Positions 40,871-53,465 of a stretch of DNA of 64,000 nucleotides are shown here, piece by piece. Position 1 is the first letter of the stretch, and each line of letters starts with the position of its first letter. The position numbers were made by a program, and so were the translations under genes. Origin of the DNA: Spirochaetia bacterium (GTDB lineage Bacteria > Spirochaetota > Spirochaetia > SZUA-6 > Bin103). The notes under the pieces were generated by a model. The model was not told the DNA's origin and searched no databases. It worked only from the letters and a program-made list of their open reading frames with translations. Location of the stretch: assembly GCA_965198005.1 (NCBI GenBank), contig CBDAOI010000003.1, positions 1,156,109 through 1,220,108 on the forward strand, read 5' to 3'.

Positions 40871-43800
40871 CTATGGCCCTCTTCGCACTGCCGATCTTTG
40901 TGCACTCTGCCGTATGTCTAACGTTAAAAAAACCACCCTAACTTCGCCCCACTCTCCCCCGTAGTAAGCAATAAACCCAGGAGGCCTCGAATCTTCGTGA
41001 GCGATATCTCTGCGCCTACGATACGCGAACCTATTGGGCGCTTCGTCCCTCGCAATCTCCTCCATTATCTGGAGTATTTGATTCGGTCTGTCAACATAAG
41101 AGTACACGACGAGAAAAAACAGGTCGCACGAACAGTAGGCCATCAGTCGAGCAAAATGCCGTTGTATACTTGTACGATCAGCCGCTCCAGAGCGACATAT
41201 AACGGCCTCCAACACTGTTACTGTTGTCGCACCCAATCTCAGCACGATATCTCGCTCACCAGGATTCCCTCGTTCCGTATAGCCACCCCTCATTTGGTCT
41301 CCTACTGACCATCCCAGCAACTCAAGTCGGTGTGTCAAAAGCTCCTTGAGAAACGCATTGAGATCATCTTCACGTGAATCGATTCCTACAGTTCGCATCA
41401 TCGGAACTAGTTCGGTGATACTCGCGGCTGCCGCCCGTACATGGGAAATCACATGCTCGTCAGCCGAACCAGACGGGTGCAATACCTTGGCTTGTTCAAC
41501 ATTATCCATCTGCTTGAGATCAAGTAATGAGTTTTTGACCCTACTTATTGCATCGTCACTAGGCAAGGCGATCACTACACCGGCGTAGGGCGTAGAGCGT
41601 ACCAGGTCGCGTGCCGCACGCAACACATCGGTCTCTCCTACCTGTAGTGTTGCTTGTTCGAGAACCGCCTGAGCTTCGGAGGATCGGTTCAACCTAGCAA
41701 GCGCTACAGCCGAGTTTGCCGCTGCCACATCGCGGAGGGTTGTCGGGTTTATCGATGCAAGAAAATCAAGGGCCGGTTGCGGTTGACCCACCGAAATTAG
41801 CAATTGGGCTTTGTTGCAAGTGTATATTTCCGATTCATCGATGCTGATGGCCCCGTACTGATGCAGCTTGCGCTGTGTATCTGACAGTAGTTGATGGCCG
41901 CGGAGTTTCTGGCTACCTTTTAGTCGCTTGAACGGGTCATGCTCTAGAAGAATACTAAGGCGAGTAGCGAACAGATTGACGAAGTAGGCAAACACGTCCG
42001 GCCTTTCACGGTGAAGGAGGGAAAATACTCGTTCTGCTGCCGCACGGTCTCCGCTTGGGTCGTTGAGGAGAGCAAGTCCCTTGTAGAAACTTATCGCCTC
42101 ATCGGCGGACTGTTGTTCGGCTGGAGCAAGATCCTTCGGTATCTCAGTATTCGCGATCTCGTCCCATTCTTCCCGGAGCAAGTGTAATCGTAGTGTTGTC
42201 CGGAGCCGTGCCACGACTCGTCCCGGGATGGGACCGATCGTACGAAGCTCTCTTTCGAGTTCGATGAATCGTTCGGCTGCATCCGCAAGACCAGCAGACA
42301 GGAGCGTTTCAATGCGTGCCTGAGCATGGGTGAGGGAGAAGACTTCTCCCGCCTCACTTGGCGTTAGCTCCTCAATCCGACGTATAGTCTGATCTCGCGT
42401 ATTGTGGGGAGCGAACTGTAGGAGCTGCGCAAGCAGCATAGGCTCGTCGGTCTCCAACACCGCGGCCAGGACCCGATCCCTGTCGTTCGCCGAGAGCGCG
42501 TCAATCGCCGACCCGATATCGGCAGCGATTGGGCGACCGGAATGGCCGTCGGAACCGTACTCTTCATAATGGGGAGAAAAGGCTGTGATTCTGCCTTTTT
42601 CGTGATGCGCAAGCGCCCCGGTCCGTATCGCGGTCACCAGTGCGCTTGTGATCTCCTCGGGCACAGATCCTGAAAAGGCCGAGATCGCCCCACTCAACGT
42701 ACGAATGTGCGTGCGTATCGACCCCCCGAGGTCGAATACAATCGAATATCGGTCTTCCTCCGAGCATTCCTCCAACGCACTAACTGTATCAATAGGATAA
42801 AGGAAACGCGAAAATGACGTGGGCGGTGCACGCGATGCGATTCTCGCGAGCGTCGCTGCTGCAGTAGTGCTCAATCTAACCGACCGGCGCACAGGACTGG
42901 TTGATCCAACGAGACTACTGTAGGCATCGACGAATGGCATCGGATCTACTTCATCTGAGAGATCTCCACAGTCGACAATGTCTACAGCAGCGCTAAACTT
43001 TGCTGTCTCAAGTTCGGAATAGGAAGAAGCAAACAGCGCGTCAACCATCGCTCGCAGCACCTCTCTTGACTGTTGAGAGAGTTCATTCCGCAGAGTAGTA
43101 AGCAGCGATTCACCAGTCTCCATGTGGTCAGGCACGCTGTAGGGGACGTTCTCGTGAAACCACTCCATCAGTGAAGCTGCCTCTTTAGGATTCGTATCAC
43201 CCCGTGCCAAGAAATGACCCAACACGGATACCGCATCAGCGAATGCCATCGATTTTGTGGTCTTGTTATCACGGTCGATTAGATCACGATCCCACGCTCC
43301 GGAATATTGCGTTCGTTTTGCAATAAGCAGGCACGCTACTGCCGTCGTAGCGGGATGGAGCAGCAAGTCCGCCAGAAGTAGCGTCTTGCCGCGAAGCTGA
43401 AGTACGAGAATGAAGAAAATATCTGCGCTCTCTATTGCTAACTCGATCAGGCGCTTCGCTACTGGATCCGGAGCAGGACCATCGTTGTCGGTCTCTACAA
43501 CTGAAAGAATCAGCGATACCAGCCATGCTATATCTCCGTGTTCTCTCATTCTATTGACACCAGTAACGTCAAAGACCCAAGCAACGCGATCCACCAGGCT
43601 TTCAGGGACGGTAGGAATCCGTGATGCGATGGTGTCCACAGTCTCGTTGTTTACGAGAGCATACTTCTTGATGAGTTCGTTTCGCGCCTCCTCCCATCCG
43701 CAGATTCCCCGGTCTGACTCAAGAACGGTGAAGGCGGCTTCCCGGAACGTTGCCACCGCGTCCTCATCCCACACCACATGAGGCACGAACGAGGGATGCC

Positions 43801-44428
43801 CCAGTTTTTTCCACCGATCAAACCAGACGCGGAGCGCAGTAGCCTGACTATCGGAGTCTGTCGGTATTCGATCCCACAGCCGGGCAGCAACCCAATCAGG
43901 AGACTGGCACCCAACTCGTTCCGGCCTGAGCTCGTTGTTTCTAATCTTCGTAGTGACGTCATCTAGTTCCGGGTGTCTACCTGGTTTGATGGTCACCCGA
44001 TAGGTCTCTTCGAAGCGGCTTTTCAAGAGGGAGCAGAGCGCACTCATCGCTGGAGTGGCTGCCTCGGCTGCTCGAACGAGATCAAATGATGCGGAGATTC
44101 GGCCCCAGACTACGGTCAGCCATCCGGCGTCAATCAACTCCTCTAGACTCGGTTCGTTCGATGTCGCGGAGAGATTCGAGCTATACGTGGCGCGTGCGCT
44201 ATCGAGATCGCTCGCGAAATCGATGCTGAGGTTGAGCAGAAGCCGGAGCATCAATTCGTCGGATAGAGTGACATCGTGATGAACACGACGACCGGCTTGG
44301 GAGCTGCTATCCGACGTAAGGTATCGCGCCAGTCTATCGCGCAGAATGCCGCGAGTCGCGGCAGGAGAGTGCTCTATGCTCGAGAAACGCGCCAGCACCC
44401 TACCCCAGAGTGTGGCCGACAGCGTCAT
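40871..44428 (-). CDS. Large hypothetical protein with helical/TPR-like body and C-terminal restriction-endonuclease-like domain
   Basis: About 1185-aa open frame in lower-GC DNA; REDD...DQMRGG...GERDIVL...VLEA motif. Confidence 0.7.
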   Translation of the reverse strand: MTLSATLWGRVLARFSSIEHSPAATRGILRDRLARYLTSDSSSQAGRRVHHDVTLSDELMLRLLLNLSIDFASDLDSARATYSSNLSATSNEPSLEELIDAGWLTVVWGRISASFDLVRAAEAATPAMSALCSLLKSRFEETYRVTIKPGRHPELDDVTTKIRNNELRPERVGCQSPDWVAARLWDRIPTDSDSQATALRVWFDRWKKLGHPSFVPHVVWDEDAVATFREAAFTVLESDRGICGWEEARNELIKKYALVNNETVDTIASRIPTVPESLVDRVAWVFDVTGVNRMREHGDIAWLVSLILSVVETDNDGPAPDPVAKRLIELAIESADIFFILVLQLRGKTLLLADLLLHPATTAVACLLIAKRTQYSGAWDRDLIDRDNKTTKSMAFADAVSVLGHFLARGDTNPKEAASLMEWFHENVPYSVPDHMETGESLLTTLRNELSQQSREVLRAMVDALFASSYSELETAKFSAAVDIVDCGDLSDEVDPMPFVDAYSSLVGSTSPVRRSVRLSTTAAATLARIASRAPPTSFSRFLYPIDTVSALEECSEEDRYSIVFDLGGSIRTHIRTLSGAISAFSGSVPEEITSALVTAIRTGALAHHEKGRITAFSPHYEEYGSDGHSGRPIAADIGSAIDALSANDRDRVLAAVLETDEPMLLAQLLQFAPHNTRDQTIRRIEELTPSEAGEVFSLTHAQARIETLLSAGLADAAERFIELERELRTIGPIPGRVVARLRTTLRLHLLREEWDEIANTEIPKDLAPAEQQSADEAISFYKGLALLNDPSGDRAAAERVFSLLHRERPDVFAYFVNLFATRLSILLEHDPFKRLKGSQKLRGHQLLSDTQRKLHQYGAISIDESEIYTCNKAQLLISVGQPQPALDFLASINPTTLRDVAAANSAVALARLNRSSEAQAVLEQATLQVGETDVLRAARDLVRSTPYAGVVIALPSDDAISRVKNSLLDLKQMDNVEQAKVLHPSGSADEHVISHVRAAAASITELVPMMRTVGIDSREDDLNAFLKELLTHRLELLGWSVGDQMRGGYTERGNPGERDIVLRLGATTVTVLEAVICRSGAADRTSIQRHFARLMAYCSCDLFFLVVYSYVDRPNQILQIMEEIARDEAPNRFAYRRRRDIAHEDSRPPGFIAYYGGEWGEVRVVFLTLDIRQSAQRSAVRRGP

Positions 44429-44696
44429 GTCGCCAAACAAACGCGGTTACGAGCCACCGCGCCTTTGCTCGTCCTCTGCCTCTTTCGGAACCACTGCGTG
44501 AGCCGTCGGCTGCGTAAGGGAGGGGTAGAGGGTTCACACGGCGCAACCCTTCCCCCGCGACCGTCTTCCTCACAACAGGCCTGGAATTCCACACCGACAG
44601 TTCACCGTACCACCCGGGGGCGCGTACCGGGGAGTCGCAGCAGTCGCGGATCTGCGCACAACGATCATGGGATCGACTTCGCATGGTTGCGCCAGC

Positions 44697-47600
44697 TCAG
44701 AGTGCGGACGTGTCAAGCAGCACGTCAACCAACTCTGCCACGACGGTCAACTCGCCATCATCCGCGCCGGAGATGACGATGGGATCGAACTCAGGATTGA
44801 CCGGTTTCAGGGTGATCTTGGCATGGCGCCAGGAGCCTCCGTCCGCGACTCGCTCGCTCTGGTATCGCTTGAGAGTGTATCGCGCACCGGTCTCAGGATC
44901 GACCGCGCCGCGAAGCTGCACCAGCACGGTCTTGCCCTGCCTGCTTCCCTCCACCGGCGAGCGGAACAGGGCATACGCACCATCGGGAACGGAGGGCTCC
45001 ATCGACCGGCCCGTGACTTGGGCGACGAACATACCCGGTCGCAGCCGCCGTGCGGTGTCCACCTCCACCCACTCCCATTCTCCTTCGGCCTCCACGGTCT
45101 GGGGATCGCCGAATGCGCTGGCTGCCACCTCCAGCGGAACGAGAGGAACGCAGGTCACGTAGCGTTCATCGGGAAGCCCGGCGACGATGCGCAAGCCGCC
45201 GTGCACCGGTTCCGCGGGTACTTCGCCAGTATCCCGGAGCCGCCGGTACGCCTGCGACGACAGCCACTCGCTCACCACGTCCCTGAACTCGTCGTCGTTC
45301 ATGTAGCGAACGTAGATGTCTTCGTTCTGATCCAACCGCTCCACGAACAGGCGCTCGATCAGGCTGCGGAACACCAGATCGAACTTGCCCTCGGGATTGA
45401 CCGCGGCGGTCTGGCGCAGCTCGTCGTCGGCGACCGCAGCCTCGACGATCTGGTCGAAGAAGAGCTGGTCGGCCTCGTTGAAGTCGGTGCCGAACCGCTG
45501 GTTGACGACGTCGATGAGCTGCGACAGCGGGACCGACTCCTCGTGCGCGGCGCCGCTGCCGACCTCGGTAGGTCCATCGAGAGGGTGCCCGTCACCGGTG
45601 CCCAAGACAATCGAGCCTTCGCCGATCTTCTGCAGCCGGTAGTACTCGAGACTCACGTTGTCGTCGAATTGGTACGCCGGCCCCGAGCGGCGGCGCGGGA
45701 GCTTGGCGGCGAGGTGGCGCAGGTAGACGTAGAGCCGCTCAAGGTCGGAGTCCTGATAGGGGATCACCTGGCTCAGAAATCGGTAAAGGTTGCGGAACGC
45801 GTAGACCTTGCCGCGCCAAAGCTCGGCCTCCGTCTCGTTCTCCTTCAAGAGCGCTGCAAAGCGCGACACCGCCGGATCCAACGCGGCGTTCATCGCCCGG
45901 TGATCCGCCGGGCTCTGGCGCTGCCTGGGCTTGAAGTACACCGCACAGAAGCGTTCGACCTCCTCGGCGAGGTACCCGCCGGATGCGTCGAGTTCGGCCT
46001 TGATTGCGTACATGCGCGCCGGATCGACTTCCGCACCCATCTCGGCGCCCTCGTAGTAGGTGGCGAACGCTTCCTGAATCTCGTCGCGGTGGTTCACGAA
46101 GTCGAGCACGAAGGTGTCTTCCTTGTGCGCGTGGGTGCGATTGAGCCGGGACAGAGTCTGCACCGCCTGGATACCGGCGAGGCGTTTGTCGACGTACATG
46201 GTGTGCAGCAGGGGCTGATCGAAGCCCGTCTGGTACTTCTCGGCCACCAGCAGCACCTGATATTCCGGCGTCGCGAAGTGCTCCGGCAACTCCTTCTCGC
46301 GGATGCCGGCGTTCATCTGCTCCTCTGTGTAGGACACGCCTGCCACCCGGTCGTCGCGGACCTCACCCGAGAAGGCGACCAGCGACTTGATCGGATAGCC
46401 CTTGCTCGTGATGTAGCGGTCGAAGCTCTGCTTGTAACGTACCGCCTCAAGACGCGATCCGGTCACCACCATCGCCTTGGCGCGGCCCCGGATCCGGTGG
46501 CGGGTGACCGTGTTGAAGTGCTCGACAATGACCTCGGTCTTCTGCGCGATGTTGTGCGGGTGCAGCCGTACGAATCGGGCAAGTGCCTTGGCTGCGTTCT
46601 TCCGCTCCACGTGGGGATCGTCCACACACTCCTTGAGCAGCCGGTAGTAGGTGGCGTAGGTCGTGTAGTGCTTGAGGACGTCCAGGATGAACCCCTCCTC
46701 GATCGCCTGCCGCATGGTGTAGCGATGCGCGGGCCTGCCGTCCCATCCGAAGACTTTCAGCGTCTTGTGCTTCGGCGTCGCCGTGAAGGCCAAGAAGCTC
46801 AGGTTGGCCTGCCGGCCGCGCTTGGCCATGCTGAGGAACAGTTCCTGCACGTGCTCACCTTCGAGGCCCTCCTCGGCGGCGCGTTGCCGAGCTTGCGCAC
46901 GTAGCGCTTCGCCTCCCAGGACCTCCTTGAGCGCGGTCGCGGTTTCACCGCCCTGGGAGCTGTGCGCTTCGTCGATGATCACAGCGCAACGGCGGGTCGG
47001 CAGCACGCCCGTCGCCTCCGTGCCTCCTTCTTCGGCCATCGCGAGAAGCTGGCGCGAGACGAAGGGGAACTTCTGCAGCGTGGTGATGATGATCGGGACC
47101 GCCATCGCCAGCGCTTCGGCGAGCTGTCGCGAGTTCTCGTCGATCTTCTGCACTACGCCGCGCTTGTGGTCGAACTGGTAGATGGTGTCCTGGAGTTGCT
47201 GGTCGAGCACGACGCGATCGGTCACCACGATCACGCTGTCGAACACGCGGGCGTTGTGCGTGTCGTGCAGCGAAGCCAGGCGATGAGTGAGCCATGCGAT
47301 GGTGTTGCTCTTGCCGCTCCCCGCCGAGTGTTCGACCAGGGCGTTGTGTCCGACCCCTTCGCGACGCGCGGAATCCACCAGGAGGCGCACCGCTTCGAGT
47401 TGGTGATAGCGGGGAACGACCATCGTCTCGACCTTCGCCCGGCGTCCCCGGTCGTCCCGTTTCTCTTCCACTTGCAGATGTACGAAGCGCGCCAGGAGGT
47501 CGAGCAGGCTGTCCCGGTGCAGCACCTCCTCCCACAGATACGAGGTGCGGTAGCTGCGCCCACTCAGATCGGGCGGGTTGCCGGCGCCGCCGTCGCAGCC

Positions 47601-48245
47601 GCGGTCGAAGGGAAGAAAGTGGGTGGCGTCGCCGGCGAGGCGCGTGGTCATCAGCACCGACTCGGTGTCCACCGCAAAGTGCACGAGGGTGCGCCGCTTG
47701 AAGCTGAAGATCGGCACGCGCGGATCACGATCCTCCCGGTACTGCTGGCGTGCGTCCTCGACGCTCTGTCCCGTCAGAGGATTCTTCAACTCCAGGGTGA
47801 CGACCGGGATCCCGTTGACGCTCAGCGTCACGTCGAGCGACTGCTCCGTACGTGGCGAAAAATGAAGCTGGCGGGTCAGCCCGAGGCGGTTGGCCGCGTA
47901 GCGTGCGTCCAGCTCCGGATTCAACTCGTGCGCCGCCTTGAAGAACGCGGCATGCAAGGTCCTGCCGTAGCACTTGAACCCATGCCGGAGCGTCGCCAAG
48001 GCGCCGTGGGTATCCATCCAACCGCACAGATCGCGCAAGATCTGCGCACCGGTCTGCTCCCCTAGTAAGGCTTCAAGTCGGGCCCATTCCTTGGACTGTG
48101 TTTCGCGGATGAAACCGAGCGTGATCTCGGGGAAGATCGCACGTTCCCGGTCGAAGCCGTCGTTCGGCACCGGCACGTACCCGTGCGCCAGCAGGTGCGC
48201 CTCGATCACCGTTTCGAACGCCGCTTCCCCGGTTCGTTCCGTCAC
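44697..48245 (-). CDS. hsdR: Type I restriction endonuclease subunit R with C-terminal S24/LexA-like domain
   Basis: D....NGIP....[36 protein letters not shown] at 48245 overlaps the ptuB stop. Confidence 0.95.
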
Positions 48246-48886
48246 CGTCGTCCCCCTGTGGGCCGCGCGAGTTTTCTGTTCAGCCACCAGATGCCCACAT
48301 GTACGTAGGGATCGAGGCGCCGGGGCGTGTTGCGGCGCGCAATTTCGCGCTCAACGCGCTGCCTCGGTACCGGTCTCCGCTGGCGCCGCCACCAATGGAG
48401 GACCGCATCCAGGATCGCCTTGCGATGATTCCTGATCCGCGGCAGGTTCAGGTTGAGCACGCCGTTGAGTTGCTGGTGGAACACCGGATCGTCGGACCGC
48501 ATCGTACCGTCATTTGCGTAGCTGATTCGATCCTCTATGCGGCGCAGCGGGTCCGCTGGATTCCACCGCAAGTCTCGATCCCCCTTCCGCGTGTCACAAT
48601 ATTGCAAGCGAAAAGGCTGGCCCTCACCGCCGCGACAGGCGGCAAGCAGATTCTGATAGTCGAGTTCCTCGCCCGGATAAGCGACCCTGCTTCGCCAGTG
48701 CTCGATCTTCATGGCGTTGGCCTCGCTCGCGATTCGGCACATGCAATAACAACACAGCCCGCGCTGTTCTGCCACCAGTGCCTCCCGCAGAGCGTCTTTG
48801 TCCTCATAGTTGTCGTAGGCACCGTGCGGCGTACTGCGATGGGTCGTGAGGCTTGCCGGTTCCGGACCCTTCACGATCGACCTCAT
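48242..48886 (-). CDS. ptuB: PtuB-like HNH endonuclease (TIGR02646-like)
   Basis: [30 protein letters not shown]. Confidence 0.85.
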
Positions 48887-50103
48887 TCGCCCTCTTCCAG
48901 GAACTCCAGGAGCGTACGAATCCGCGTCACCTCCGGATCATCGCTTCCGACCTTCTCGATCAACTGAGTCAACGACCGCCGGGCGCGCCCAAACGCATCG
49001 CGATCGATCTCACCGTTGATACGGGCAAGGAGTTCCAGTACTTCCCTGGTGCGCGGATCGGCCTCCATGATCTCCTCCAGCACGCGGCTGGAGTCGACGC
49101 CGAAGGAGTGTGTCGGCGAGAACGCCCCGTCCTCGGTAAGGATCTGGATGCGGTCGTGCTCGACTTCGCCGATCACCTGCGGCGAGTGCGTGGTAGCGAT
49201 GAACTGACAGCGGGGAAACGTCTCCGTGAGCTTGCGTGCGATCTGGCGCTGCCACTTCGGGTGCAGCAGGAGATCGATCTCGTCCATCAACACCACGGCG
49301 CCCGCCTCAGCGGCCGGATCGGTCAGTCCGGGGTTCGCCTCGCCCAGCCGTCGGGTGAGATCCAGCACCACGGCCAGTATGCTCCGCTCGCCGTGCGACA
49401 GGTGGAGCACCGGCAGCGACGCCCCGTGGCGGTCGATAAGCAGCGTCCGATCATCGGATCCGCCAAGATGCAGGTGGCCGTAACCAGGAAGGAAGCGTCG
49501 TGCCGCACGTTCCACGCCGATCAAGGCCGCGGCGTTGAAGGTCTGCCTCACTCTCATCCAGTTCGCGAAGTAGCCCAACGGAACCTCCCGATCCGAAAGG
49601 GCGCCTTCGTATGCCCGCGAGACCCCGCCCATGGGCTTCGGCGGCCACCGTTCTGTCACCGCTAATCGCACTGCCCGAGTCGGCGAGTACATAACCGCCA
49701 AGGGCCGCCCTTGTGACTCCACTGCTTCGATTTCGGGGCGAGTGCTTGGGGCGACGGGAGGCTGCGCGCCGATAAACCCTTTCCTCCCCGGTCGCATTTC
49801 GCTCTGACTACGAATCTGGTGCACCACAAAGTGGTACGACGATCGTGCGGCATCGAGACTGCACCCGACGTCCAGGGATTCCGCCTCCACGCGAATATCG
49901 TCATCGCTGAACGGCTTTGGCGCCCCCACGTTGGACCTGTTATATACCCGTTCGAACTCGAACAGGCAGATCGCCAACGCGTCGATAAGCGTCGTCTTGC
50001 CGACGCCGTTCTCGCCCACTACCACGTTGAAACCAGGCTGGAAGCGCAACTCGGCCGTCATGATGGAGCGGACATTCGTCAACTTGATACTGGTGACTTT
50101 CAT
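48883..50103 (-). CDS. ptuA: PtuA-like ABC-type ATPase
   Basis: GENGVGKT, LSHGERS, VVLMDEIDLLLHPKWQ, FIATTHSP, SS.VLEEIM. Confidence 0.85.
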   Translation of the reverse strand: MKVTSIKLTNVRSIMTAELRFQPGFNVVVGENGVGKTTLIDALAICLFEFERVYNRSNVGAPKPFSDDDIRVEAESLDVGCSLDAARSSYHFVVHQIRSQSEMRPGRKGFIGAQPPVAPSTRPEIEAVESQGRPLAVMYSPTRAVRLAVTERWPPKPMGGVSRAYEGALSDREVPLGYFANWMRVRQTFNAAALIGVERAARRFLPGYGHLHLGGSDDRTLLIDRHGASLPVLHLSHGERSILAVVLDLTRRLGEANPGLTDPAAEAGAVVLMDEIDLLLHPKWQRQIARKLTETFPRCQFIATTHSPQVIGEVEHDRIQILTEDGAFSPTHSFGVDSSRVLEEIMEADPRTREVLELLARINGEIDRDAFGRARRSLTQLIEKVGSDDPEVTRIRTLLEFLEEGE

Positions 50104-51416
50104 GACACCTGATCCACTTCGATCTGCCCGGTTACCGCACCCGCGATCAGGGCCGATCGGCGCTCCACTATGAGCGCGTGCGCGAGTGTAACAGACTCCT
50201 TTAGAGTGTCAATTCCATCTCCCTCTCTCTGCAAATATCTCACGATTTCTTGCTGCTCGCCAACCGGCGGAACCGGAAGGTTCACTGCGAAGAACCCATC
50301 GGGATATAGGCGTAAGCGTGAAGACCATACACCCATGGAATAACGCGTAACCTCCTGTGCGAAGACGCGCAAGCGAACCAGCGCATCAATGTACGTCGGA
50401 TCCAGCTCTTTCGTCGGCGCATATACGTTGTACGCTGGGCTAACGATGCCATCTACAAACGCGACTCCCATTGCGCCCATCCAAGCCCAGAGTGTATTGA
50501 TCACCAAATCGCCACGGAGACATATCTTGTACCCTTCCGTAGTCTCGGCCTCGAACATGTTGACTTCCTTCTCAGAGCGAGGTGTCACGCCAGTCAGGTG
50601 GGATACCGTTAGAAGCTCCTCGCACCCCGTTGCTGATCGTTGATCCCTCTCACGAAACAGCCAACGAGCTCGCTCCGTATCCCAGTGCTCCGGGATCTCG
50701 CCCAGCCATCCTATGCCGGAATCGCGGAACGAAGCGTCGGGATTCAGCCCGCGTGTGACAGCACGAGTGATCAGCGCTTGGCGCTTCTCCTTTAGCAGGC
50801 TCAGCAACCGTTTCTTCTCCGCTAACAGTGCATCCAGCCGTTCCGTCTCCCGGTCCAGGTAGGTAGCTATGGCGCGTTGCTTGGTCCTATCGGGTAACGG
50901 AACGGACACATTGCCGATAGAGTCCCACTCAGCGCGTGGCATCTTCGATCCAAAGGTCGAAGCATTTACCGTGTCGACAAACTCACTCCAAAGGCAGATG
51001 TACATAAGGAATCGAGGTTCTACCTCCACCGGCCTCATAACCAAGAACTCGGTAGAAGACTGTCCGGAAAAATCAGCGACCCATGCTTTTGCGAGATATG
51101 GGCGCAGCTTTCCGAATAGTACATCTCCGGGCTCGAAAACATTACTGAGCGAGGCGGGGTAGACTACAGTGGTCGCGGTGCCATCATCAGCCGCTGTCGC
51201 GTTGAGAAGCCTTCCCGTCCGTGACTCAATGTTCTCCAAACCGATATACGGCCTGTCATCGTTACCTCCATCAATGCGTAACTGTCGAAGCGACACGACG
51301 TGCTTTAGGCGCTTACCTTCGAATGGTAGTCTCAGCAGTCTCAGCTTGTTATTCTCGTCATGATGGCTCATCTGTCGCCTCAGAGAAAGCCGACCGATTT
51401 GCTCTTTTGTTTCCAA
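50100..51416 (-). CDS. hsdS: Type I R-M specificity subunit S
   Basis: Two TRDs with conserved P....Q..I..YLD and RQALITRAVT.G repeats; start may be near 51371. Confidence 0.92.
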   Translation of the reverse strand: METKEQIGRLSLRRQMSHHDENNKLRLLRLPFEGKRLKHVVSLRQLRIDGGNDDRPYIGLENIESRTGRLLNATAADDGTATTVVYPASLSNVFEPGDVLFGKLRPYLAKAWVADFSGQSSTEFLVMRPVEVEPRFLMYICLWSEFVDTVNASTFGSKMPRAEWDSIGNVSVPLPDRTKQRAIATYLDRETERLDALLAEKKRLLSLLKEKRQALITRAVTRGLNPDASFRDSGIGWLGEIPEHWDTERARWLFRERDQRSATGCEELLTVSHLTGVTPRSEKEVNMFEAETTEGYKICLRGDLVINTLWAWMGAMGVAFVDGIVSPAYNVYAPTKELDPTYIDALVRLRVFAQEVTRYSMGVWSSRLRLYPDGFFAVNLPVPPVGEQQEIVRYLQREGDGIDTLKESVTLAHALIVERRSALIAGAVTGQIEVDQVS

Positions 51417-51452: not shown

Positions 51453-53465
51453 TCAAGCGGTCACCTCCCGCAACAACTGAATGATCCTCTCTTCCGCCTG
51501 CTTCAGATCCGCGTCGATTTCTTCCAGCGGGCGCGGGGGCGTGTACTGGTAGAAGTGGCGGTTGAAGTTGATCTCGTACCCGACCTTGTCCCTGGTGCGG
51601 TCCATCCAGGCGTCGGGTACGTGCGGGAGCACCTCGCGCTCGAAGTAGGCGTCGATGTCCTCGGCGAGCGGGACGTTCTCAGAATCGCGCAGTGCAGGGT
51701 CGGGCTCGAGGCCGTCACCGCGGTCGTTCCTGACCGGCGCGGCCTGCGGAGTCTTCGCGGTGAATGCCTCGCGGAACAGCTTGTACTGGGGCTTCTTCCA
51801 ACGTGACCGGCGATCGCGCAGGAGGGCGCCGATCCGCTGCGATACGATGTTCCAATCGTCCAGGGGACCCCTGCCCAGCGCCCGGTCGATGGCCTGTACG
51901 TCGTCGAGCAACTCGGGGCACGCGTACAAGAACCGCTCCATCGCGTCGAACGTCATCTGATAGCGCAGGCGCAGGGGACGCTCCACGGTGACCCGCGTAT
52001 ACCCGAAGTCGATGTTGAGGAAGCTCTTGCAGCGCTCGTCGTCCTCGAATCGACCGTACAGCCGTACGGTCTCGTCGATTTGATCGTCCGACAGGTGGCG
52101 GCGCTTGTCGCCGAGGCTGCGCCGGCTCTCCGCGCTGCCGCCCGGCGTCCACAGATCGCGTGCATCGACGAGTTGAATCCTGGCGTGGCGCCGCTTCTCC
52201 TTGCGATTGGTCACGATCCACACGTAAGTGCCGATGCCGGTGTTGTAGAACATCTGTTCGGGTAGCGCGATGATTGCTTCGAGCCAGTCGTTCTCGATGA
52301 TCCAGCGGCGGATGTTGCTCTCACCCGAGCCGGCGCCGCCCGTGAACAGTGGCGAGCCGCTGAAGACTATGGCGAGCCGCGAGCCGTGGCGATGCTCGGC
52401 CGGGCGCACGGGCTCGAACTTGGTCACCATGTGCAGCAGGAACAGGAGCGCGCCGTCGTTGACGCGCGGCAGCCCGGCGCCGAAGCGACCGGCGAAGCCC
52501 CGCTTCTCGTGCTCGCGCCTGATCTCGCTCTGCTGCCGTTTCCAGTCGACGCCGAACGGAGGGTTGGTCAGGAAGTAGTCGTAGGTTTCGCTCTCGAAGC
52601 GGTCCTCGGTGAGGCTGTCGCCGAAGCGTACGTTGTCGTCGCCGCCGCTACTGTGGCTCACCTCCTTCATCAGCATGTCGGAGGCGGCGGTGGCGTAGGC
52701 GCGCTTGTTGTAGTCCTGCCCGTAGACGTAGAGCTTGGCGTCGGGATGATGCTCGCGCAGGTAGCTCTGCGCCTCGGCCAGCATGCCGCCGGTGCCGCAG
52801 GCCGGATCGAGCAGCTTGCGCACGGTGCCGCGGGTGGCGAGCAGATCGTCGTCGTTGATGAACAGCACGCTCACCATGAGCCGGATCACGTCGCGCGGCG
52901 TGAAGTGGTCGCCGGCAGTCTCGTTGGCCAGTTCATTGAAACGACGGATCAGGTTCTCGAAGATGAGACCCATCTGGTCGTTGGGCACTTGCCTCGGGTG
53001 GAGGTCTACCCTGCGGAACTGCGAAACCACCATGTAGAGGATGTTCGCCTCGCGCATCTTCTCGATCTCGGCTTCGAACTCGAAGTATTCGAAGATGCGG
53101 CGCACCTCGGAGGAGAACCCCTGGATGTAGCTCACCAGATGCTGCGCGGTGTTGTCGGGATCGCCGAGCAGCCTCTCGAAATCGAGATCAGAGTGGTTGT
53201 GGAAGCGCTGGCCCGCAGCCTGATTCAGCATGGCGTCTAGCGCTGCGCCCTGGTATCGGCCCTTGCGCTTCCGATATTCCGCGAGGACTCTGGCCTTGGT
53301 GGGCGCCAGCACGCAGTCAAAGCGGCGCAGCACCGTCATCGGGAGCATGACGCGCTCGTACTGTGGCGGCCGGTAGGGGCCGCGCAGCAGATCGGCGATC
53401 TGCCAAATCAGGTTGGCAAAATAACTATGGTCGGGCATCGGTACAGCCGCACGGAACCTGGACAT
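51453..53465 (-). CDS. hsdM: Type I R-M N6-adenine methyltransferase subunit M
   Basis: IWQIADLLRG, G.HFTPR, DPACGTGGML, NPPF, FYNTGI.TY. Confidence 0.96.
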   Translation of the reverse strand: MSRFRAAVPMPDHSYFANLIWQIADLLRGPYRPPQYERVMLPMTVLRRFDCVLAPTKARVLAEYRKRKGRYQGAALDAMLNQAAGQRFHNHSDLDFERLLGDPDNTAQHLVSYIQGFSSEVRRIFEYFEFEAEIEKMREANILYMVVSQFRRVDLHPRQVPNDQMGLIFENLIRRFNELANETAGDHFTPRDVIRLMVSVLFINDDDLLATRGTVRKLLDPACGTGGMLAEAQSYLREHHPDAKLYVYGQDYNKRAYATAASDMLMKEVSHSSGGDDNVRFGDSLTEDRFESETYDYFLTNPPFGVDWKRQQSEIRREHEKRGFAGRFGAGLPRVNDGALLFLLHMVTKFEPVRPAEHRHGSRLAIVFSGSPLFTGGAGSGESNIRRWIIENDWLEAIIALPEQMFYNTGIGTYVWIVTNRKEKRRHARIQLVDARDLWTPGGSAESRRSLGDKRRHLSDDQIDETVRLYGRFEDDERCKSFLNIDFGYTRVTVERPLRLRYQMTFDAMERFLYACPELLDDVQAIDRALGRGPLDDWNIVSQRIGALLRDRRSRWKKPQYKLFREAFTAKTPQAAPVRNDRGDGLEPDPALRDSENVPLAEDIDAYFEREVLPHVPDAWMDRTRDKVGYEINFNRHFYQYTPPRPLEEIDADLKQAEERIIQLLREVTA

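What the first reader, a model, noticed from the sequence alone, without database searches (positions are those of the whole stretch)
44697..45160. HsdR fused to a LexA/S24-like autopeptidase domain
Seen: after the normal HsdR end, about 150 extra residues read [14 protein letters not shown]...[18 protein letters not shown]...YTLKRY...[11 protein letters not shown]. The candidate catalytic Ser (45003-45005) and Lys (44868-44870) are intact, but the scissile site reads AAS rather than the canonical AAG. Established: S24 domains dimerise and self-cleave on RecA-ssDNA filaments, and EcoKI restriction alleviation works by proteolysis of HsdR. Inference: this could be a built-in DNA-damage or ssDNA sensor that switches restriction, releases PtuAB, or cleaves a partner in trans.
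Basis: partly seen in the sequence, partly recalled or inferred. Interest (0 to 1): 0.75.

Follow-up and report, generated by a model that had tools for sequence, protein, structure and literature searches.

The report
Restriction enzyme with LexA-like self-cleaving tail
The DNA-cutting subunit of a type I restriction system ends in a LexA-like self-cutting protease domain that also caps many other bacterial defence enzymes, which suggests an undescribed protein-level switch, and this copy carries a rare change at the cutting site.

Summary
The minus-strand ORF 44697-48287 is an intact HsdR. Its last ~150 residues match Pfam Peptidase_S24 above the cut-off (36.8 vs 23.3 bits). They fold with confidence (pLDDT 87) into the LexA / lambda cI / UmuD fold (Z 10-12).

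The tail is a portable module. It gave 1836 hits in the representative library and at least 574 loci in species genomes. It is nearly always C-terminal and sits on HsdR, Type ISP-like, DEAD/MZB, HNH, McrBC, LlaJI and Schlafen-like enzymes. This genome holds a second tailed system.

The module's norm is [A/V/I]-A-A|G. This copy reads V-A-A|S. That is a real strain allele, seen in mismatch-free contigs of three studies, and its closest relatives keep Gly.

PtuAB is one of several swappable cargoes between hsdS and hsdR, so it is not a partner of the tail.

Best reading (inferred, 0.45): damage-triggered self-cleavage switches restriction off, possibly blunted in this strain.

My searches found no publication. 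This scan had already found the same fusion in other genomes.

The parts
51453..53465 (-). hsdM, the type I methyltransferase subunit (670 aa)
   Evidence: Pfam N6_Mtase 171.3 bits and HsdM_N 85.3 bits; PADLOC MTase_I 848 bits.
50100..51416 (-). hsdS, the specificity subunit (438 aa)
   Evidence: Pfam Methylase_S 29.2 bits; PADLOC Specificity_I 267 bits. Its stop overlaps the ptuA start as ATGA.
48883..50103 (-). ptuA-like ATPase (406 aa), Septu cargo gene in the hsdS-hsdR slot
   Evidence: PADLOC PtuA 327.3 bits, E 5.5e-98; Pfam AAA_21 and AAA_15. Its stop overlaps the ptuB start as ATGA.
48242..48886 (-). ptuB-like HNH nuclease (214 aa), Septu cargo gene
   Evidence: PADLOC PtuB 230.6 bits, E 4.3e-69. 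Pfam HNH reaches only 14.1 bits, below its cut-off.
45243..48287 (-). HsdR body: nuclease, SF2 motor and helical C-terminal region (residues 1 to about 1015; likely true start is the GTG at 48245)
   Evidence: Pfam HSDR_N, SWI2_SNF2, ResIII and T1R_D3-like; PADLOC REase_I 132 bits; ELK166, GSGKS323 and DEAH439; GTGA overlap with the ptuB stop.
45165..45242 (-). variable linker (residues about 1016-1041) between the HsdR body and the S24 module
   Evidence: These columns vary in the alignment of 121 C-termini, whereas the module that follows is nearly invariant.
44718..45164 (-). LexA/S24-like module (residues 1042-1190)
   Evidence: Pfam PF00717 36.8 bits against a cut-off of 23.3; AlphaFold2 pLDDT 87.1; LexA, cI and UmuD as top structural matches; dN/dS 0.10-0.12 against relatives.
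45117..45125 (-). predicted scissile site Ala1055-Ala1056 | Ser1057; the module's norm is A-A|G
   Evidence: Codons read. The site aligns with the VAAG of the genome's own LexA. The P1' residue is Gly in 116 of 121 aligned C-termini, 77 of 80 loci and 111 of 117 parsed representatives. The T at 45119 is confirmed by mismatch-free contigs.
45003..45005 (-). candidate nucleophile Ser1095, in the G-R-S-M-E-P motif
   Evidence: Ser in 120 of 121 aligned sequences. It aligns with the GDSM/GESM motifs of the genome's LexA paralogues.
44868..44870 (-). candidate general base Lys1140, in Y-T-L-K-R-Y
   Evidence: Lys in 120 of 121 aligned sequences. It aligns with the TVKRL motif of LexA2.

Best explanation
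The last ~150 residues of this HsdR form a complete LexA/UmuD/cI-type (S24) self-cleaving module: a cleavage-site strand, a Ser nucleophile and a Lys base. A variable linker of about 25 residues joins it to an otherwise ordinary, intact type I restriction subunit. The gene lies in a translationally coupled hsdM-hsdS-ptuA-ptuB-hsdR operon. The module is a portable cap found on the C-termini of many unrelated DNA-targeting defence enzymes. I infer that it is a proteolytic fuse. A damage signal, most likely the RecA-ssDNA filament, would drive the module to cut its own A-A|G bond and shed the tail. The enzyme body would then end in [A/V/I]-A-A-COOH, the same kind of end that marks the cleaved LexA N-terminal fragment for ClpXP. 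Restriction would so be switched off while the cell's own DNA is broken or transiently unmodified. That would be a hard-wired form of restriction alleviation. In this strain the P1' Gly is replaced by Ser, which may slow or block the cut, so the fuse may be blunted here. Shown: the domain's identity, fold, residues, distribution, purifying selection and the reality of the Ser allele. Inferred: that it cleaves at all, what triggers it, and what follows.
For: Identity: Pfam S24 scores above its cut-off. The confident model matches LexA, cI and UmuD at Z 10-12. A family HMM aligns the AAG, GxSM, KR and NPxF landmarks to the genome's own LexA paralogues.

Catalytic apparatus under constraint: Ser 120/121, Lys 120/121, Ala-Ala 120/121 each and P1' Gly 116/121 in aligned C-termini. 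The site reads [AVIM]AA|G in 77 of 80 loci, with 3 not parsed. dN/dS of the module is 0.10-0.12, against about 0.16 for the HsdR body.

A generic mechanism is needed: the same module (65% identical, with AAG) caps a methylase/Type_ISP_C protein in this same genome. Among 37 representatives it accompanies Type_ISP_C (8), ResIII (8), Eco57I (6), MZB (5), HNH_4 (3), Schlafen-type helicase (2), McrBC (1), LlaJI (1) and PLDc_2 (1). It is C-terminal in 121 of the 134 representatives that hold the module's end.

Precedents in print: LexA cleavage reveals latent ClpX-recognition motifs (passage in the Introduction of PMC10584840, citing Neher 2003). Type I restriction is suppressed after DNA damage (passage in PMC3874165). 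EcoKI HsdR is removed by ClpXP and Pseudomonas HsdR by Lon-like proteases (abstracts).

Host factors: the genome encodes RecA (451.9 bits) and ClpX (631.1 bits).
Against: No experiment exists; cleavage, trigger and outcome are all inferred. The module is far from LexA in sequence: BLASTP against the genome's own LexA gives nothing significant, and PDB sequence and profile searches found no LexA.

The LexA pocket that receives RecA F203 is formed by V79, V82, F111, L113, V146 and V153 (passage read). I mapped these by offsets from the scissile bond, Ser and Lys. In the module only two of five assessable positions keep the residue type (Phe at Ser-8, Val/Ala/Ile at P1'-3). The others are Ala, Pro and Tyr. 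This mapping assumes no insertions or deletions.

RecA-independent S24 autocleavage is known (IrvR; abstract of PMC7101444). In the Type ISP-like system the tail sits on the methylase/specificity protein, not on the PLD-helicase, so loss of restriction alone is not the only possible outcome.

This copy has Ser at P1'. All characterised sites quoted in the papers I read are Ala-Gly or Cys-Gly (passages). The cleavage loop is the least confident part of the model (mean pLDDT 57 for model residues 21-30).
Confidence: 0.45

Rival explanations
1. On-switch. The tail holds the enzyme in check, for example by dimerising or tethering it. Infection-linked RecA filaments or another signal trigger self-cleavage, which releases a more active or less discriminating nuclease, as an alarm or abortive-infection response.
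For: It rests on the same conserved cleavage apparatus. All host bodies are defence effectors. In the Type ISP-like pair the tail sits on the recognition/methylase protein, which fits a change of control as well as it fits destruction.
Against: One small module would have to inhibit many unrelated bodies: HsdR, methylase-TRD, HNH, McrBC and Schlafen-type helicases. The variable linker argues against a specific docking surface. Unleashing DNA cutters on damaged self DNA is hazardous, whereas documented control of type I enzymes after damage goes the other way (passage).
Confidence: 0.2
2. Non-cleaving scaffold. The S24 fold serves as a dimerisation or RecA-filament docking domain, for example to pair two motor subunits or to bring the enzyme to recombination intermediates. 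Proteolysis would then be irrelevant.
For: LexA, cI and UmuD C-domains appear as dimers and as RecA-filament complexes in the entry titles. This copy has a non-canonical P1' Ser. Among 117 parsed representatives, 6 lack Gly at P1' (2 Ser, 2 Thr, 2 Asp).
Against: A pure scaffold would not need a nearly invariant Ser, Lys and A-A|G.
Confidence: 0.1
3. One reading: the tail acts in trans on a partner, or its cleavage releases or activates PtuAB.
For: ptuA, ptuB and hsdR are joined by 4-base start/stop overlaps, so they are made together.
Against: PtuA plus PtuB are present in only 12 of 57 HsdR-type loci. Other cargoes fill the slot elsewhere. The tail also occurs on enzymes with no PtuAB nearby. 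The module carries its own conserved substrate site.
Confidence: 0.05
4. In this strain the fuse is disabled. The Gly-to-Ser change makes the tail non-cleavable, so the domain is here a silent appendage or a selected always-on allele. This concerns only this copy and is compatible with any reading of the family.
For: P1' is Gly in 116/121, 77/80 and 111/117 relatives. The closest relatives, 93% identical in the tail, have VAAG. LexA G85D and the P. aeruginosa LexA G91D appear as mutant structures; that these are non-cleavable is recalled, not read here.
Against: Ser is the smallest change after Ala, and its effect at P1' of an S24 peptidase was in none of the texts I could read. Every other conserved residue of the module is intact. 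The allele is fixed in mismatch-free contigs of three studies.
Confidence: 0.4

Closest known systems
LexA, lambda cI and UmuD (MEROPS family S24, Pfam PF00717)
   Same: Same fold (Z 10-12.3). Ser-Lys dyad in GxSM and xKR motifs, a preceding cleavage-site strand with [V/A/I]-A-A|G, and an NPxF strand. The defining features A84-G85, S119 and K156 are as stated in the PMC2921402 passage.
   Different: There is no DNA-binding domain. The module is the C-terminal cap of a 1000-residue restriction motor and of many other defence enzymes. Its sequence is far from LexA (no significant BLASTP hit). It has a longer hairpin before the Lys strand (alignment). The RecA F203 pocket positions are only partly kept. 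This copy reads A-A|S.
Restriction alleviation of type I enzymes: EcoKI HsdR degraded by ClpXP; Pseudomonas aeruginosa HsdR degraded by Lon and AsrA
   Same: Both are post-translational, proteolytic shut-off of the HsdR subunit to protect self DNA after damage or hypomethylation (abstracts of PMC4231737 and PMC11109961; passages of 10.1101/2024.10.21.619520 and PMC3874165).
   Different: Those systems use host proteases that recognise a translocating or stalled HsdR, with no protease domain in HsdR. Here the enzyme would carry its own sensor-protease. None of those texts, nor the 2025 review PMC12707154, contains S24, peptidase or self-cleav, and LexA appears only once, in a reference title of PMC3874165 (term look-ups).
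Type I R-M operons with embedded defence cargo (here Septu PtuAB)
   Same: The order is hsdM-hsdS-cargo-hsdR. PtuA scores 327 bits and PtuB 231 bits against PADLOC. The cargo varies between related loci. That cargo such as PrrC sits inside hsd loci is recalled, not checked here.
   Different: The cargo is not specific to the S24 tail. In this operon the genes from hsdS to hsdR are joined by 4-base overlaps.

Membership tests
Peptidase S24 (LexA/UmuD/cI autopeptidases) | Sequence match to the family profile above its curated cut-off | tested here: met
   PF00717 scores 36.8 bits on the last 180 residues and 32.0 bits on the whole protein, against a cut-off of 23.3.
Peptidase S24 (LexA/UmuD/cI autopeptidases) | LexA C-terminal-domain fold | tested here: met
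   Model pLDDT 87.1. Top matches are LexA, cI and UmuD: Foldseek E about 2e-5, Z 12.3-10.0.
Peptidase S24 (LexA/UmuD/cI autopeptidases) | Ser nucleophile and Lys general base (LexA S119 and K156) | tested here: met
   Ser1095 and Lys1140 are present, each kept in 120 of 121 relatives, and aligned to the LexA paralogues' motifs.
Peptidase S24 (LexA/UmuD/cI autopeptidases) | Internal Ala-Gly (or Cys-Gly) scissile bond | tested here: not met
   This copy reads Ala-Ser and the base is confirmed by contigs. The feature is met by the module family: Gly in 116/121, 77/80 and 111/117.
Peptidase S24 (LexA/UmuD/cI autopeptidases) | Self-cleavage, stimulated by RecA-ssDNA filaments or alkaline pH | not testable with these tools
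   This needs biochemistry. RecA is encoded in the genome.
Type I restriction enzyme R subunit (HsdR) | N-terminal PD-(D/E)xK nuclease, SF2 motor motifs, and hsdM and hsdS partners in the operon | tested here: met
   HSDR_N, SWI2_SNF2, ResIII and T1R_D3-like; ELK166, GSGKS323 and DEAH439; PADLOC REase_I, MTase_I and Specificity_I. TIGR00348 scores 189.4 bits, below its cut-off of 284.55, so this is a divergent HsdR subfamily.
Septu (PtuAB) | Adjacent PtuA ATPase and PtuB HNH nuclease | tested here: met
   PADLOC PtuA 327.3 bits and PtuB 230.6 bits; the genes are adjacent with an ATGA overlap.

The most novel reading that the evidence does not exclude
The S24 cap is a general, RecA-filament-gated fuse for DNA-targeting immune enzymes (type I, Type ISP-like, DEAD/MZB, HNH, McrBC and Schlafen-type). 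Self-damage makes each enzyme cut off its own tail. That unmasks an Ala-Ala-COOH degron and sends the enzyme to ClpXP. It would be a self-contained autoimmunity brake that many environmental bacteria stack on several systems at once, with natural P1' variants such as this Gly-to-Ser allele tuning or disabling it.
Probability: 0.3. Interest if true: 0.8.

Novelty: new variant of a known kind. Interest (0 to 1): 0.65.

Why it matters
Restriction enzymes endanger their own host whenever its DNA is broken, repaired or under-methylated. The known safeguards rely on host proteases that recognise the enzyme. A LexA-type self-cleaving domain built into the enzyme would be a different, portable solution: a direct protein-level wire from a damage signal to the immune effector.

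The module is common. It gave 1836 hits at E 0.001 or better among 1.84 billion representatives and at least 574 loci in species genomes. It occurs in 14 of the 23 other genomes searched in this organism's family. It was absent from every restriction-modification text I could check.

The idea is directly testable with Ser, Lys and scissile-site mutants. The natural Gly/Ser pair found here, this strain against relatives 93% identical in the tail, offers a ready-made comparison.

Tried and rejected
- phmmer of the tail against PDB sequences gave only weak RNA polymerase alpha hits (E 0.007), which I judge spurious.
- A profile of alignment A1 against PDB hit only 7lo5, LlaBIII, LlaGI and a marginal 2f8l (E 0.82), through the Type ISP-like rows of the alignment, and no LexA.
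- BLASTP of the tail against the genome's own LexA gave nothing significant.
- The first AlphaFold2 run, with a shallow 29-row alignment, failed (pLDDT 39.6). The second run, with 74 more diverse rows, succeeded.
- The homodimer job on the module returned no verdict. It is evidence neither for nor against pairing.
I used A1 instead.
- NCBIfam has no model for the tail.
- tblastn of the tail found no match in 50,697 phage records and 1 match in 72,556 plasmid records.
- No promoter-like or terminator-like site lies between hsdR and the next ORF.
- Earlier-findings look-ups by place and by sequence returned nothing.
- I considered that Ser might be the only tolerated substitute for Gly at P1', since it was the only one. 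I dropped this when the wider set also showed 2 Thr and 2 Asp.
- Papers I could not obtain: the LexA cleavage-loop mutagenesis study and Neher 2003.
- Literature searches with no relevant paper on S24 fused to restriction enzymes. The S24 hits in the defence-systems preprint are table numbers.
Full report
**What is there**

The minus strand of the window carries one operon: hsdM (51453-53465), hsdS (50100-51416), a PtuA-like ATPase (48883-50103), a PtuB-like HNH protein (48242-48886) and a long ORF, 44697-48287. Pfam and PADLOC name them:
- N6_Mtase 171 bits and MTase_I 848 bits for hsdM.
- Specificity_I 267 bits for hsdS.
- PtuA 327 bits and PtuB 231 bits.
- HSDR_N, SWI2_SNF2, ResIII, T1R_D3-like and REase_I 132 bits for the long ORF.

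hsdS/ptuA and ptuA/ptuB overlap as ATGA. The ptuB stop overlaps a GTG as GTGA. That GTG is the likely HsdR start. It gives 1182 aa, like the closest relatives (1182-1183 aa). The nuclease and motor motifs are intact: ELK166, GSGKS323 and DEAH439, numbered from the upstream GTG.

The codons for Ser1095 (45005-45003), Lys1140 (44870-44868) and Ala-Ala-Ser (45125-45117) are where it said.

Pfam Peptidase_S24 scores 36.8 bits on the tail alone, against a cut-off of 23.3. A first structure prediction with a shallow alignment failed (pLDDT 39.6). A second, with 74 diverse rows, gave pLDDT 87.1 and pTM 0.82. Its top matches are all LexA, lambda cI and UmuD: Foldseek probability 1.00 and E about 2e-5; VIA-align Z 12.3-10.0, with E. 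coli LexA residues 75-201 aligned to model residues 13-162. That places the AAS within a residue of LexA's A84-G85.

An HMM of the tail family aligns its AAG, GxSM, KR and NPxF landmarks to the genome's own two LexA paralogues. Plain BLASTP does not, and PDB sequence searches miss LexA. So this is a divergent S24 subfamily.

**A portable cap on defence enzymes**

A word-indexed search with the tail found 1529 proteins. Of the best 120, 103 carry HsdR-type domains, 16 are Type_ISP_C/N6_Mtase enzymes and one is a 2001-aa DEAD/MZB helicase. The exhaustive representative search gave 1836 hits at E 0.001 or better, 1059 at 1e-10 and 162 at 1e-30.

Among 37 representatives of 420 aa or more, 36 score S24. 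With it come Type_ISP_C (8), ResIII (8), Eco57I (6), MZB (5), Helicase_C (4), HNH_4 (3), Schlafen-type helicase (2), a STAND NTPase (2), and McrBC, LlaJI, PLDc_2 and T1RH-like_C (1 each). Of the 134 representatives that contain the module's end, 121 have it within 20 residues of the C-terminus.

Almost all are metagenome-assembled genomes, from Spirochaetia (closest, 86%), Gammaproteobacteria, Nitrospirales, Latescibacterota, Acidobacteriota, Planctomycetota, Chloroflexota, Myxococcota and others. It is nearly absent from sequenced plasmids (1 of 72,556) and was not found in 50,697 phage records.

In the window's own taxonomic family, 14 of 23 other genomes have it, often two or three copies on different bodies. 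None of 17 genomes from other families of the order has it.

This genome itself has a second tailed system: a PLD/SNF2 helicase gene followed by a 1338-aa methylase/Type_ISP_C/S24 protein. Its tail is 65% identical to this one and reads AAG.

**Constraint**

In 121 aligned C-termini, Ser is kept in 120, Lys in 120 and each Ala of the site in 120. P3 is Ala 61, Val 42 or Ile 17. P1' is Gly in 116. In 80 genomic loci the site parses as [AVIM]AA|G in 77, with none having Ser and 3 not parsed. Nei-Gojobori dN/dS for the tail against four relatives is 0.10-0.12, at least as strict as the HsdR body at about 0.16. A scaffold-only role would not require this.

**The AAS site**

Ser at P1' is rare. It occurs in 4 of 121 aligned C-termini, including this protein, on both HsdR and Type ISP-like bodies. 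In the wider set, 2 of 117 have Ser, beside 2 Thr and 2 Asp. The relatives 85-94% identical in the tail all read VAAG. The difference is one base, the T at 45119.

Contigs with no mismatch spanning that base occur in runs X1, X2 and X8, from three studies. One of these may be the source sample. More diverged contigs in the same runs, and all three covering contigs in X9, read C, which gives Gly.

So the allele is real and strain-specific, not an assembly error. I found no data on Ser at P1' of an S24 peptidase. The texts I read give only Ala-Gly or Cys-Gly sites. Whether this copy cleaves is therefore open.

**PtuAB is cargo**

Of the 80 loci, 57 are HsdR-type, 16 Type ISP-like and 7 other. 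Forty of the HsdR-type loci show hsdM or hsdS upstream. Twelve have PtuA plus PtuB between hsdS and hsdR, and eight more have only a PtuA-like hit.

In ten other slot genes I scanned, I found an OLD-like ATPase-TOPRIM, IrrE/M78 peptidases with or without an HTH, DUF4411, a Schlafen/AlbA_2 protein, RhuM and DUF6575. The 1189-aa ORF downstream (40871-44440) has no relative in any of the 80 loci.

**Mechanism**

Because one small module caps many unrelated bodies through a variable linker, its effect must be generic. The best-supported model is a fuse. A signal promotes self-cleavage at A-A|G, and the body is left ending in [A/V/I]-A-A-COOH.

LexA cleavage is stated to reveal latent ClpX-recognition motifs (PMC10584840, Introduction passage citing Neher 2003). 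That the LexA fragment ends in Val-Ala-Ala is my recollection, not read here. The genome has RecA and ClpX. Type I restriction is known to be suppressed after DNA damage (PMC3874165 passage). HsdR is removed by ClpXP in E. coli and by Lon-like proteases in Pseudomonas (abstracts and passages).

Several points weigh against a simple RecA model:
- Of the LexA pocket residues that receive RecA F203, only two of five positions that I could map by offset keep their type.
- A RecA-independent LexA-like protein exists (IrvR; abstract).
- In the Type ISP-like pair the tail is on the methylase/specificity protein.

I put the fuse at 0.45, an on-switch at 0.2, a non-cleaving scaffold at 0.1 and trans action or PtuAB release at 0.05. 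Independently, I give about 0.4 that this strain's Ser allele blunts cleavage.

**Novelty**

Ten full-text searches found no description of S24 domains on restriction enzymes. Term look-ups in a 2013 type I review, a 2025 restriction-modification review and a 2024 preprint on HsdR proteolysis also found none.

This scan had already reported the same fusion in at least seven other windows. My results agree with those notes. They add the P1' allele with read support, the second tailed system in the same genome, the cargo-slot survey, the selection estimate and the degron argument.

Noticed in passing
G000:C3:424479-431663 (locus L007 2480-9664): This genome has a second S24-tailed restriction system. 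A 1054-aa PLD-nuclease/SNF2-helicase gene is followed by a 1338-aa N6_Mtase/Eco57I/Type_ISP_C protein that ends in the same module, 65% identical to the window's and reading AAG. The same gene pair recurs in 16 of the 80 related loci.
   Followed up: partly
window 40871-44440 (minus strand): A 1189-aa ORF lies 256 bases downstream of hsdR. It has no Pfam, PADLOC or NCBIfam match and no relative in any of the 80 related loci. The ESM Atlas places it among clusters of hypothetical proteins (scores 0.95-0.96), with only weak leads to Mrr_cat and NucS_C/TPR proteins (0.79 and 0.77). It may be a separate, undescribed defence gene with a C-terminal nuclease.
   Followed up: partly
window about 44655: In all four runs laid, one contig each departs from the window at 44655 into the same foreign sequence (loose ends). 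Related strains therefore have a different neighbour just past the hsdR stop, and the hsdR 3' flank is a strain-variable junction.
   Followed up: no
loci L012-L084, between hsdS and hsdR: In the 20 HsdR-S24 loci I measured, the gap between hsdS and hsdR was 1.6-5 kb, and 0.7 kb in one more distant locus. Its contents vary: PtuAB, OLD-like ATPase-TOPRIM, IrrE/M78 peptidase with DUF4411, HTH-M78, Schlafen/AlbA_2 with Fic-like_C, RhuM and DUF6575. The M78 (IrrE-like) peptidases are themselves damage-response-type proteases.
   Followed up: partly
L007 9661-10140: A 159-aa ORF right after the second tailed gene matches the first about 50 residues of an AAA_15/SMC-type ATPase and then a BPD_transp_1 permease segment. 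It looks like a truncated or chimeric gene at a rearrangement point.
   Followed up: no
L090 4974-7444 (Halomonas sp. PA16-9, 1.83-Mb plasmid record NZ_CP040452.1): This is the only plasmid-collection hit (38.6% identity). A 686-aa ORF is followed, in an overlapping different frame, by a separate 159-aa S24-module ORF that has AAG, the Ser and the Lys. It is either a split form or a frameshifted fusion, in a named strain (not labelled a metagenome assembly) that could serve for experiments.
   Followed up: partly
G000:C2 (locus L002 1258-1908): A second LexA-like repressor (216 aa) has the site Q-A-G rather than A-A-G, besides the canonical LexA on C4 (L001 1255-1860, VAAG).
   Followed up: no
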